In this document: positions 14,498-15,008 of the stretch, in pieces
Position numbering within the stretch: position 1 is the first letter of the stretch
How the letters are laid out: every line of letters begins with the position of its first letter
Virus record (IMG/VR): IMGVR_UViG_2663763000_000006
Strand: one strand, 5' to 3'
From: a virus
Taxonomy: Duplodnaviria > Heunggongvirae > Uroviricota > Caudoviricetes
Length of the DNA stretch: 15,195 bases
The notes under the pieces: model-generated
The model's database searches: none
The model's input: the letters and a program-made list of their open reading frames with translations, nothing else
Told to the model about the DNA's origin: nothing
Program-made: the position numbers and the translations under genes

Positions 14498-14523
14498 CGC
14501 GCTTCGCTTGTCTGCTGCTTCGC

Positions 14524-14548
14524 CGGGGCATAAAAAATTTATGCCCCG
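14524..14548 (+). terminator. Stem-loop 27 nt downstream of the Q stop (11-bp stem cggggcataaa / tttatgccccg)
   Basis: Inverted repeat seen directly; no clear U-tract, so it may be a weak terminator or an RNA stability element. Confidence 0.45.
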
Positions 14549-14825
14549 ACTCTCCAGCTCCTGTATCAATCAGATAATTTCACGACGCCTTCCAGCTTAT
14601 TGCCATCATCGACGGTCAGGCTCTTACGCAATCCCACCGCGTTGATTGCATGTTCTCGCCGTCTCAGTGCGATTTTGACGGCCTTACCTTTCACCTCATC
14701 AAATCAAAAGCCCTCACGTCTTTTTCACGCTCAGCGTGAGAAATACAGCCATTCTGTTGTGTCGCTGCGACATCGTTCAGGGGATGCTATTTACCCCCTG
14801 AAACGCGGGCTGTTCCCCCGTCACC

Positions 14826-14851
14826 TGCGCGCAGAAAAAGCGCGTTTTTTT
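14826..14851 (+). terminator. Intrinsic-terminator-like hairpin (cgcgc-agaaaaa-gcgcg) followed by T7
   Basis: GC stem plus a run of seven T seen directly on the plus strand; lies where the cos-proximal region is expected. Confidence 0.55.
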
Positions 14852-14921
14852 GTGCACGCACGGATCCTTGACGGATCCAGCCGCCATGCGGGCCGGAAGG
14901 GTAAAAAGTCGTTCAAAAAAA

Positions 14922-14948
14922 TTGTGCAAATTTGTGCACTTTTGTGCA
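14922..14948. repeat. Three direct repeats of TTGTGCA at exact 10-bp phasing
   Basis: TTGTGCA at 14922-14928, 14932-14938 and 14942-14948, seen directly. Confidence 0.8.
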
Positions 14949-14980
14949 AACAAAAAGCGCCCCTGAGGCGCTTTAGTGTT
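14946..14980 (-). terminator. Rho-independent terminator for the minus-strand gene entering from the right edge
   Basis: Stem agcgcc (14956-14961) pairs with ggcgct (14967-14972), loop cctga; on the minus strand the stem is followed by TTTTTGTTTG. Confidence 0.7.
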
Positions 14981-15008
14981 TTATAGGTTGTGTATATTTG
15001 CTGGGTCC

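What the first reader, a model, noticed from the sequence alone, without database searches (positions are those of the whole stretch)
14498..15008. About 500 bp of structured non-coding DNA after Q: expected cos region, but no canonical P2 cos 19-mer
In P2 the cohesive end lies shortly beyond the Q stop. This region has a hairpin (14524-14548), a perfect palindrome TCACGCT-c-AGCGTGA (14725-14739), a segment ccgtcacctgcgcgcag (about 14816-14832) resembling P2 cos-adjacent sequence as I recall it, a GC hairpin with T7 (14826-14851), and two GGATCC palindromes 5 bp apart (14862-14878). I could not find GGCGAGGCGGGGAAAGCAC or its reverse complement, so this phage either has a divergent cos or packages differently.
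Basis: partly seen in the sequence, partly recalled or inferred. Interest (0 to 1): 0.45.

Follow-up and report, generated by a model that had tools for sequence, protein, structure and literature searches.

The report
Divergent P2-family cos packaging site
The non-coding DNA after the portal gene of this P2-like E. coli prophage is most likely its DNA-packaging (cos) site, with a changed cut-site sequence but the same ruler-like layout as phages P2, 186 and P4, so it is an ordinary feature in an undescribed sequence variant.

Summary
No P2 19-mer occurs within 3 mismatches, either in the window or in a 46-kb stretch covering a near-identical prophage.

The prophage is P88-like (Xuanwuvirus, Peduoviridae). 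The region is non-coding.

By homology through intermediates (SEN5, 3LV2017, phiT5282H, Kp4861-1), a divergent cos core lies at 14807-14827 (GGGCTGTTCCCCCGTCACCTG). The 19-nt register is ambiguous by 2 nt.

To its right are four GTGCA motifs at 14852, 14924, 14934 and 14944. These are +25, +97, +107 and +117 from the core. P2, 186, P4 and SEN5 have ATGCA or GTGCA at the same offsets, give or take 3 nt at the last site; phiRSA1 has its first three 0-1 nt away and its fourth at +125.

Homology among more than 1,100 E. coli prophages ends exactly after the last motif (14948). Variable cargo begins there.

Small satellite-like islands of about 12.5 kb, with no portal or terminase gene, share only 14789/14804-14948 with the window. 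This mirrors the P4/P2 relationship and delimits the functional unit.

Virion ends were not observed, so the cleavage positions are inferred. This copy's large-terminase gene carries a 5-bp frameshift.

Verdict: a real but ordinary feature, a sequence variant of a known kind.

The parts
8792..9592 (-). gpM, small terminase subunit. Context: the presumed reader of the cos repeats.
   Evidence: PF05944, E 1.4e-36. PGAP names it gpM in a near-identical prophage.
11705..13451 (+). gpP, large terminase subunit, frameshifted in this copy. There is one GACGC copy at 13018-22 where relatives have two. The ATPase part is 11705-13042; the nuclease part is in another frame, 12834-13451.
   Evidence: PF06056 + PF03237 in the first ORF and PF17289 in the second. 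5-bp gap against P88_4B11. 67 related loci have two copies and only the window has one. The gene is intact at 1752 bp in NZ_AP042682.1. The same deletion is present in GCA_026134195.1, which is 100% identical to the window over the shared stretch.
13451..14497 (+). Portal gene Q. The cos region starts after its stop codon.
   Evidence: PF04860. 45% identical to P2 gpQ, 53% to SEN5, 69% to the Klebsiella 3LV2017 group.
14524..14548 (.). Perfect 11-bp-stem hairpin 27 nt after the Q stop. Its position is equivalent to tQ of P2 and tW of 186, but it has no U-tract. It lies outside the cos module proper.
   Evidence: P2 and 186 annotations. It was not picked up by the terminator scan.
14718..14746 (.). 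Palindrome or hairpin of unknown role, specific to P88-like phages and outside the cos module.
   Evidence: It is not within the part shared with satellites or other genera.
14789..14948 (+). The cos module as delimited by comparison. It is the only DNA shared with satellite-like islands (14789-14948 at 82%; 14804-14948 at 75%). Homology among P88-like prophages ends at its right edge.
   Evidence: satellites; homology ends at 14948, followed by many unrelated cargo sequences.
14804..14808 (+). Left (Q-side) flank CGCGG, a remnant of the GCGCGC flank of P2, 186, P4 and SEN5. It is deleted in phage P88_4B11.
   Evidence: Alignment; 5-bp indel.
14807..14827 (+). cos core, the predicted cohesive-end region. 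The 19-nt window is either 14807-14825 (minus-strand 5'-GGTGACGGGGGAACAGCCC) or 14809-14827 (5'-CAGGTGACGGGGGAACAGC).
   Evidence: GTTCCCCCG is shared with the SEN5 19-mer CTCGTTCCCCCGCCTCGCC. 10/19 identical to the P2 19-mer in the ungapped register. Invariant in the 78 IMG/VR loci taken by an adjacent 32-mer. Conserved across Xuanwuvirus, Novemvirus and Reipivirus inside otherwise diverged DNA. The phiRSA1 cohesive end, which that phage's authors determined, starts GGTGAGGCGGGG (PMC5694545).
14826..14832 (+). Right flank TGCGCGC, as in 3LV2017. It mirrors the GCGCGC on the Q side of P2-type sites.
14827..14851 (+). GCGCG/CGCGC stem plus T7. It is terminator-like in P88-like phages. Only the T-run is conserved in other lineages.
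   Evidence: terminator scan; z -1.1; the stem is absent in phiT5282H-like and satellite alleles.
14852..14856 (+). R0: GTGCA, 25 nt after the core (ungapped register). It lies inside the block equivalent to the published 55-bp P2/P4 cos.
   Evidence: The same +25 offset in P2, P4, 186, SEN5, 3LV2017 and phiRSA1. Present in 99 of 115 metagenome loci at +24/+25.
14860..14878 (+). ACGGATCC x2, which gives the two GGATCC sites and two GATC sites. Spacer element specific to P88-like phages.
   Evidence: D8. Variable or absent in other cos modules.
14922..14948 (+). R1-R3: three TTGTGCA repeats 10 bp apart (GTGCA at 14924, 14934, 14944), preceded by an A7 tract. The last conserved element before the cargo.
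   Evidence: Offsets +97/+107/+117, against P2 +97/+107/+119, P4 and 186 +97/+107/+120, SEN5 and 3LV2017 +97/+107/+117. Unique in the window and in the 46-kb prophage stretch. Present in about 100 of 115 metagenome loci.
14954..14974 (.). Bidirectional terminator hairpin belonging to the variable cargo, not to cos.
   Evidence: It lies beyond the homology boundary.
15009..15195 (-). 3' part of an 87-aa cargo gene that reads towards cos and runs off the window.

Best explanation
Window 14789/14804-14948 is the cos site of a P88-like (Xuanwuvirus) P2-family prophage. It has the P2 architecture with a diverged sequence.

Proposed mechanism:
1. The terminase (gpM plus gpP) recognises the arm on the cargo side. 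This arm holds a T-run plus GTGCA 25 nt from the core (R0), and three TTGTGCA repeats 10 bp apart at +97, +107 and +117 (R1-R3), all on one face of the helix.
2. The terminase then makes staggered nicks in the G+C-rich core at 14807-14827. This yields 5' cohesive ends of about 19 nt, either 5'-GGTGACGGGGGAACAGCCC or 5'-CAGGTGACGGGGGAACAGC.
3. The Q-side DNA (14498 to about 14790) is a dispensable spacer. The cargo hotspot begins right after R3.

Shown here: homology of the core and flanks through intermediates; conservation of repeat positions; the module boundaries; the P2-type terminase genes.

Inferred, not shown: that the repeats are terminase-binding sites; which subunit reads them; the exact nick positions and overhang length.

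This particular copy probably cannot package its own DNA, because gpP is frameshifted.
For: 1. Context. The gene order L-M-N-O/P-Q carries P2-family Pfam domains. The best DNA matches are P88-like phages.

2. Homology through intermediates. Local-alignment z-scores of the window's cos region against shuffles are 15.7 for SEN5, 25.5 for 3LV2017, 46 for phiT5282H and 11.2 for Kp4861-1. SEN5 and 3LV2017 carry the P2-type core CCCCCGCCTCGCC. A 9-sequence alignment is almost gapless over 230 nt.

3. Ruler. In records whose ends define the site, [A/G]TGCA lies at +25/+97/+107/+119 (P2), +25/+97/+107/+120 (P4, 186), +25/+97/+107/+117 (SEN5) and +25/+96/+106/+125 (phiRSA1). The window has 72, 10 and 10 nt between its four GTGCA motifs, the same as SEN5 and 3LV2017; P2 has 72, 10, 12 and P4 and 186 have 72, 10, 13.

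4. Conservation. The core and 9 nt to its left are invariant in the 78 IMG/VR loci taken by an adjacent 32-mer. The repeats are kept in 84 distinct IMG/VR right arms and 89 distinct metagenome right arms.

5. Boundaries. Homology in 1,142 of 5,426 E. coli genomes ends mostly at 14948, followed by many unrelated cargo sequences.

6. Satellites. Islands of about 12.5 kb share only 14789/14804-14948 with the window. They carry an integrase, a toprim primase, Icd-like and Ogr/Delta-like genes and a P2-family capsid homologue, but no portal or terminase. This parallels P4 against 186, where homology is about 8 nt on one side of the 19-mer and about 130 nt on the other. In 39 of 56 E. coli genomes carrying such an island, a second match to the cos module is present, against a 21% base rate.

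7. No other candidate exists in a complete near-identical prophage.

8. A 32.5-kb metagenome contig of a phiT5282H-like phage starts 3 nt before the core.
Against: - No virion ends were observed for any phage with this core type.
- No phage record in the collection starts at the core.
- There is no pile-up of contig ends at the core in IMG/VR or metagenomes: one contig starts at -3 and one at -22.
- The record of the isolated phage P88_4B11 reads straight through the core and is opened at window 14902/3. A sister record from the same project, P2_4C9, breaks inside the P2 19-mer.
- Direct window-to-P2/186/P4 similarity is not significant on its own (z 0.6-2.0). The assignment rests on intermediates and on spacing.
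- The cut register is ambiguous by 2 nt, and the overhang length is assumed from the family.
- Binding of the repeats by terminase is untested, and I could not read the primary paper on P2/P4 cos.
- The co-occurrence count ignores clonal relatedness and possible second satellite copies.
Confidence: 0.85

Rival explanations
1. The conserved module is a transcriptional control region for the P-Q operon or for the cargo genes (terminator, promoter, operators). The real packaging site lies elsewhere, or the phage packages by a headful (pac) mechanism.
For: - A terminator-like stem plus T7 sits at 14827-14851, and further hairpins flank the region.
- TTGTGC resembles a -35 hexamer. In P2, the old promoter overlaps the last ATGCA repeat (annotation, sequence).
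- Assemblies of isolated P88-like phages read through the core.
Against: - The motif positions are locked to the cos nick sites annotated in the P2 and 186 records and to the cohesive end reported for phiRSA1.
- The module is shared with satellites that have different flanking genes.
- Cargo genes beyond R3 differ in identity, and here the first one reads towards cos.
- The stem of the terminator is not conserved in other lineages, whereas the T-run and GTGCA are.
- The terminase genes are of the P2 cos type.
- Only one weak promoter-like match exists in the interval, outside the module.
Confidence: 0.07
2. The region is the cos region, but cleavage occurs elsewhere within it. One possibility is about 14902/14903, where the P88_4B11 record is opened. 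Another is 3-5 nt left of the predicted register, as the start of contig PPYF01370356.1 would suggest.
For: - The P88_4B11 record ends at window 14902/3, while a sister record from the same project ends within the true P2 cos.
- L285 starts at the equivalent of window 14804.
Against: - The P88_4B11 junction is perfectly contiguous, with no missing or duplicated bases. It looks like an arbitrary opening of a circular assembly. P2_4C9, by contrast, lost 10 nt at its break.
- Position 14902/3 has no counterpart among the known cut sites in the aligned P2, 186, P4, SEN5 and phiRSA1 sequences.
- A single contig end is weak evidence, and assembler ends are often a few bases off.
Confidence: 0.06
3. 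The site is a decayed, non-functional remnant in a defective prophage lineage.
For: - This copy has a frameshifted large-terminase gene.
- A related prophage has a pseudogenised morphogenesis gene and an IS3 insertion in the cargo.
Against: - The frameshift is private to this copy: 1 of 68 loci.
- The module is nearly invariant across hundreds of alleles and several genera, and in isolated, plaque-forming or induced phages such as P88, PhiR44_2, Chuche, P88_4B11 and Shae_phiSM.
Confidence: 0.02

Closest known systems
cos of coliphages P2 and 186 and satellite P4 (19-nt 5' cohesive ends GGCGAGGCGGGGAAAGCAC / GGCGTGGCGGGGAAAGCAT; '55-bp' conserved cos region of Ziermann & Calendar 1990, as cited in PMC3931495 and PMC5694545)
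   Same: - Location just beyond the portal gene and next to the variable cargo hotspot.
- A G+C-rich core with the ...TTCCCC(C)G... block.
- GCGCGC-type flanks.
- A T-run plus NTGCA at +25.
- Three NTGCA repeats near +97, +107 and +117-120.
- Asymmetry: only the cargo-side arm is conserved.
- The module is shared with satellites.
- P2-type gpM and gpP.
   Different: - The core matches only 10/19 (ungapped) to 13/19 positions, with ...CCCCCGTCACC(TG) in place of ...CCCCGCCTCGCC.
- The repeats are GTGCA (TTGTGCA) rather than ATGCA.
- R2-R3 spacing is 10 nt, against 12-13.
- The Q-to-core spacer is about 310 nt, against about 170.
- Direct sequence similarity is not significant without intermediates.
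cos of Salmonella phages SEN4/SEN5 (ggcgaggcgggggaacgag; PMC5261728) and the corresponding region of Klebsiella phage 3LV2017
   Same: - GTGCA-type repeats at identical offsets (+25, +97, +107, +117).
- The GTTCCCCCG / GCTCCCCCG block.
- The TGCGCGC right flank (3LV2017).
- A terminator after the repeats.
   Different: They keep the P2-type right half of the core (CGCCTCGCC). Their portals are only 53% and 69% identical to the window's.
cos of Ralstonia phage phiRSA1 (reported cohesive end 5'-GGTGAGGCGGGGTCCAAC; PMC5694545)
   Same: The cohesive end begins GGTGA, like one of the two registers proposed here. ATGCA lies at +25, +96 and +106.
   Different: A different host phylum, ATGCA-type repeats, and a fourth repeat at +125.
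Lambda cos (cosQ-cosN-cosB with gpNu1 R-sites); named from established knowledge, as a functional analogy only
   Same: A nicking site flanked on one side by an array of short repeats, presumed to bind the small terminase and position the large subunit. A bent or A-tract spacer.
   Different: Unrelated sequence and terminase families. A 12-nt rather than about 19-nt overhang. P2 uses circular monomers as substrate (my own knowledge, not tested here).

Membership tests
P2-family (Peduoviridae) cos site | Lies just downstream of the portal gene (Q), between it and the variable region that precedes replication gene A | tested here: met
   Q stop at 14497, core at 14807-14827, cargo from 14949. 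In a near-identical prophage, gpA lies beyond the cargo.
P2-family (Peduoviridae) cos site | G+C-rich core homologous to the family's 19-nt cohesive end | tested here: met
   Homology is established through SEN5, 3LV2017, phiT5282H and Kp4861-1 (z 11-46). 10/19 identical to P2 in the ungapped register. The GTTCCCCCG block is shared with SEN5.
P2-family (Peduoviridae) cos site | Conserved cargo-side arm: T-run plus NTGCA at +25 and three NTGCA near +97, +107 and +117-120 | tested here: met
   GTGCA at 14852, 14924, 14934 and 14944. The spacings match P2, P4, 186, SEN5 and 3LV2017, and approximately phiRSA1.
P2-family (Peduoviridae) cos site | Encoded next to P2-type terminase subunits gpM and gpP | tested here: met
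   PF05944; PF06056 + PF03237 + PF17289. gpP is frameshifted in this copy only.
P2-family (Peduoviridae) cos site | Terminase cleavage that gives about 19-nt 5' cohesive ends at the core | not testable with these tools
   No virion-end data. No record or contig pile-up at the core. One 32.5-kb contig starts 3 nt before it.
P2/186/P4 packaging-specificity group (canonical 19-mer) | 19-mer GGCGAGGCGGGGAAAGCAC or the 186 variant, within a few mismatches | tested here: not met
   0 matches at up to 3 mismatches in the window and in the 46-kb prophage stretch. The repeats are GTGCA, not ATGCA.
Headful (pac) packaging | No fixed ends; terminally redundant, permuted genomes; a terminase of a pac-type lineage | tested here: inconclusive
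   The terminase is of the P2 cos type and a cos-homologous module is present. Virion DNA structure was not examined.

The most novel reading that the evidence does not exclude
The P88-type module may define a separate packaging-specificity group within Peduoviridae. Under this reading, the first base of the position-locked NTGCA repeats, together with the core, acts as the recognition code. The repeats are A in P2, 186, P4 and phiRSA1, G in P88, SEN5, 3LV2017 and phiT5282H, and possibly C in phiCTX.

This group would have its own dedicated satellites. These are islands of about 12.5 kb in about 1% of complete E. coli genomes. They resemble P4 in their integrase, primase, Icd-like and Ogr/Delta-like genes, but they carry a P2-family major-capsid homologue instead of sid/psu. 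They share only the 145-160-bp cos module with the helper.
Probability: 0.4. Interest if true: 0.55.

Novelty: new variant of a known kind. Interest (0 to 1): 0.32.

Why it matters
P88-like prophages sit in about a fifth of complete E. coli genomes, and their cos is not annotated in any record I saw. Knowing the site and its limits (about 14800-14948) has several uses:

- Genomes can be oriented correctly.
- The cargo or defence hotspot can be delimited to the base; it starts right after the third repeat.
- Virion ends can be predicted.
- Cosmids and transduction assays can be designed.

The position-locked repeat ruler, shared from P2 to phiRSA1 and P4, offers a testable model of how P2-family terminases find cos. 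It may also explain what sets helper-satellite specificity.

If the satellite-like islands that carry only this module are confirmed, they would be a second E. coli satellite lineage tied to a different helper group. None of this overturns current understanding; it extends it.

Tried and rejected
- **P2 19-mer search.** With 3 mismatches there was nothing in the window or in the whole related prophage.
This would place the cohesive end in the A/T-rich stretch 14834-14852. I rejected it because the SEN5/3LV2017 alignment and the repeat ruler place the core at 14807-14827.
- **Rfam.** Only a chance-level SprD hit: 17.7 bits against a gathering score of 100.
- **The 42-aa ORF at 14566-14694(-),** annotated in some phage records. 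Rejected as a gene.
- **The 128-aa TTG ORF at 14600-14986(+).** It spans the cos module and the cargo boundary, and no annotation supports it.
- **Promoter scan.** Nothing inside the module.
- **Physical ends from databases.**
  - No phage record starts at the core.
  - The ends of the P88_4B11 record look arbitrary.
  - IMG/VR and metagenome scans show no pile-up of ends.
  - The exact-protein look-up returned only large bacterial contigs.
- **Literature.**
  - No paper in the library holds the P88-type core sequence in a phage context.
  - No paper discusses the cos of P88 or Xuanwuvirus.
  - Ziermann & Calendar 1990 and Nakayama 1999 are not in the library. I therefore could not check what they say about sequences beyond the 55-bp block, or about the phiCTX R4-R6 repeats annotated in NC_003278.
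- **L178.** It looked like a candidate satellite, but it is a mosaic P2-like phage with a 30%-identical portal and a fused R0/R2.
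Full report
**What the window is**

The ORF map and Pfam scan show a P2-type head and packaging block in the reverse of the usual P2 orientation:
- gpL, 8194-8760 (-)
- gpM small terminase, 8792-9592 (-), PF05944
- gpN capsid, 9638-10690 (-)
- gpO scaffold, 10714-11583 (-)
- gpP large terminase, 11705-13451 (+), PF06056 + PF03237, with PF17289 in a second frame
- gpQ portal, 13451-14497 (+)

The finding's interval matches P88-like phages (Xuanwuvirus, Peduoviridae) at 92-97%. 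The portal is only 45% identical to P2 gpQ, 53% to Salmonella phage SEN5 and 69% to the Klebsiella 3LV2017 group. The interval occurs in 1,142 of 5,426 complete E. coli genomes.

**Observation check**

The P2 19-mer is absent at up to 3 mismatches from the window and from a 46-kb stretch that contains a near-identical complete prophage.

The interval is non-coding:
- PGAP annotates nothing there.
- Ten further places show no called gene between Q and the cargo.
- The 42-aa ORF that some phage records annotate (14566-14694, minus strand) has variable sites spread 20/20/18 over codon positions. It carries frameshifts in 8 and stops in 2 of 83 alleles.
- Rfam gives only a chance-level hit.

**Finding the core**

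I put the ends of P2, 186, P4 and SEN5 into the Q-to-cos orientation of the window. SEN5 reads
...agcgcgcg CTCGTTCCCCCGCCTCGCC cgcacgcagaaaccccgcttttttgtgcaa...
and the window reads
...aaacgcgg GCTGTTCCCCCGTCACCTG cgcgcagaaaaagcgcgtttttttgtgcac...

Three further genera give intermediates:
- Klebsiella 3LV2017: gcgcgcg CTTGCTCCCCCGCCTCGCC tgcgcgc
- Enterobacter phiT5282H: gcgtg GGCTGTTCCCCCGTCACC tgcgcac
- Klebsiella Kp4861-1: GGCTTGCCCCCCGTCACC tgcgcgc

Local-alignment scores of the window's region exceed shuffles by z = 15.7 (SEN5), 25.5 (3LV2017), 46 (phiT5282H) and 11.2 (Kp4861-1). Against P2, 186 and P4 directly they are not significant, z 0.6-2.0. The homology to the classical sites therefore holds only through intermediates and through the architecture described next.

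The cohesive end reported for phiRSA1, GGTGAGGCGGGGTCCAAC (PMC5694545), shows that a GGTGA start exists in the family.

**The ruler**

The positions of [A/G]TGCA after the last base of the 19-mer are as follows. For P2, P4, 186, SEN5 and phiRSA1 the last base is set by the record ends; for 3LV2017 it was placed by alignment to those records.

| Element | Offsets |
|---|---|
| P2 | +25, +97, +107, +119 |
| P4 | +25, +97, +107, +120 |
| 186 | +25, +97, +107, +120 |
| SEN5 | +25, +97, +107, +117 |
| 3LV2017 | +25, +97, +107, +117 |
| phiRSA1 | +25, +96, +106, +125 |

The window has GTGCA at 14852, 14924, 14934 and 14944. The spacings are 72, 10 and 10 nt, which is +25/+97/+107/+117 if the 19-mer ends at 14827.

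The contiguous P2-P4 identity runs about 8 nt on the Q side, then the 19-mer, then about 29 nt. This corresponds to the published 55-bp cos region and includes the first repeat. P4 and 186 stay similar out to the third distal repeat, and diverge within about 8 nt on the other side. The phiCTX record annotates repeats R4-R6 across its cos, and CTGCA/CTGCG motifs lie at comparable offsets.

In 115 metagenome loci with the exact window core (of which about 10 are chance matches without the arm), 89 distinct right arms were seen. The motif occupies +24/25 in 99 loci, +96/97 in 102, +106/107 in 98 and +116/117 in 92.

**Boundaries**

- In 84 distinct IMG/VR alleles, the sequence becomes unrelated immediately after the third distal repeat.
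- In E. coli genomes, homology mostly stops at window 14948. This is the cos-adjacent cargo hotspot described for P2-like phages (PMC9122126).
- On the other side, everything between the Q stop and about 14790 is conserved only within P88-like phages. Some relatives have a 614-bp gene inserted right at the Q stop.

**Independent delimitation by satellites**

Several loci carry the full module but have no portal gene within 1.6-3.6 kb. L227 and L294, both whole contigs of about 12.9 kb, and an island next to hpt in E. coli mip270_22 encode the following:
- a P4-type integrase
- an HTH regulator
- an Icd-like protein
- a toprim primase of about 890 aa
- a second tyrosine recombinase
- an Ogr/Delta-like zinc finger
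- a 236-aa coiled-coil protein
- a P2-family major capsid homologue, 35% identical to the window's gpN, with an N-terminal extension of about 120 aa

Their only DNA similarity to the window is 14789-14948 (82%) or 14804-14948 (75%). This is the P4/P2 pattern, and it argues that this 145-160-bp unit is what the packaging machinery needs.

Fifty-six E. coli genomes carry the satellite-type module. Thirty-nine of them have at least one more match to it, against a base rate of about 21%. This count is not corrected for clonality or for second satellite copies.

**Register and mechanism**

Two 19-nt registers are possible.
- 14807-14825 gives 5'-GGTGACGGGGGAACAGCCC. It resembles GGCGAG... and GGTGAG... 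starts and places the nick before TGCGCGC, as in 3LV2017.
- 14809-14827 gives 5'-CAGGTGACGGGGGAACAGC. It keeps the distance to all four repeats identical to the reference phages. It also puts the 5-bp indel of phage P88_4B11 exactly at the left nick.

I lean slightly towards the second register but cannot decide between them.

The most likely mechanism, by analogy with lambda cosB/gpNu1, is that gpM binds the phased repeats and positions gpP to nick the core. gpP's N-terminal HTH may contribute. This step is inferred.

The T-run and the GTGCA motifs are conserved.

**What argues against this reading**

- No virion ends are available for this core type.
- The P88_4B11 record reads through the core and is opened at 14902/3 with a seamless junction. 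P2_4C9, from the same project, breaks inside the P2 19-mer with 10 nt missing.
- Contig ends do not pile up at the core. One 32.5-kb contig starts 3 nt before it and one 31.8-kb contig starts 22 nt before it.

**This copy**

The window has one GACGC at 13018-13022 where 67 related loci have two. This puts the nuclease domain of gpP out of frame. The same state is present in assembly GCA_026134195.1, which is identical to the window over the 2,945 bases compared. Induction of this particular prophage is therefore not a suitable test.

**Verdict**

The interval holds a genuine but ordinary feature: the cos site of a P2-family prophage, in a sequence variant that is not annotated and that I did not find described. 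The variant fits the family's architecture precisely.

Noticed in passing
window 13007-13029 (GACGC at 13018-13022): The large-terminase gene gpP has a 5-bp deletion: one GACGC copy where 67 related loci have two. This splits it into 11705-13042 and 12834-13451, with the nuclease domain out of frame. The same state is present in GCA_026134195.1 (JAOWMY010000002.1), which is 100% identical to the window over the shared stretch. It is either a real inactivating mutation or an assembly error.
   Followed up: yes
L227 (core at 3836), L294 (core at 9242), L235, L255, L263; L328 = NZ_CM132655.1 2727247-2739760: Integrated islands of about 12.5 kb carry the P88-type cos module but no portal or terminase. 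They encode a P4-type integrase, a toprim primase, Icd-like and Ogr/Delta-like proteins, a second recombinase, a coiled-coil protein and a P2-family major capsid homologue (35% identical to gpN, with an N-terminal extension), plus MazEF. The module is present in 56 of 5,426 complete E. coli genomes, and 39 of these also have another match to the cos module. They are likely satellites of P88-like helpers. I could not establish whether this family has been described.
   Followed up: partly
P2, P4, 186, SEN5, 3LV2017, phiRSA1, phiCTX right ends (L005, L010, L011, L008, L093, L315, L316): NTGCA motifs sit at nearly fixed offsets (+25, +97, +107, +117-125) from the cohesive end across distant Peduoviridae and P4. 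The first base is lineage-specific: A, G, or C in phiCTX. The phiCTX record annotates repeats R4-R6 across cos. The distal triplet lies outside the published 55-bp cos block.
   Followed up: partly
L002 3099-3712 (PhiR44_2); also vB_EcoM-569R5, 705R2, PV468777: Some P88-like phages have an extra 174-aa gene of about 614 bp on the minus strand, inserted exactly at the Q stop codon. This is a second cargo site on the Q side of cos.
   Followed up: partly
L001/L003 (LR595891.1, phage P88_4B11), equivalent to window 14804-14809: An isolated phage lacks 5 bp (CGCGG/GCGGG) at the left edge of the predicted core and has C instead of T at window 14814. The Q-side flank therefore tolerates change, and the indel sits where one register predicts the nick.
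   Followed up: partly
L178 (IMGVR_UViG_2648501669_000002, 7445-12361): A mosaic P2-like element. Its portal is only 30% identical to the window's Q. An Ogr-like gene sits between the portal and cos. It has the P88-type core with R0 fused to R2, leaving two repeats, and P88-like cargo (ParM). L089 lacks R1-R3 altogether. These are natural deletion variants that could show whether the distal repeats are needed.
   Followed up: partly
L285 = PPYF01370356.1 1-5891 (contig 32,523 bp); L301 = ERZ1643251 NODE-1134 1-13413 (contig 31,753 bp): Two genome-length metagenome contigs start 3 nt and 22 nt before the core. They may be assembly breaks at physical ends. The other ends of these contigs could not be fetched.
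   Followed up: partly
window 15009-15195 (-) and beyond: The first cargo gene encodes an 87-aa hypothetical protein that also occurs at 96-98% DNA identity in lambdoid and other unrelated coliphages (H17-H24). In related prophages it is followed by an IS3 element and ParM-like partition genes.
   Followed up: no
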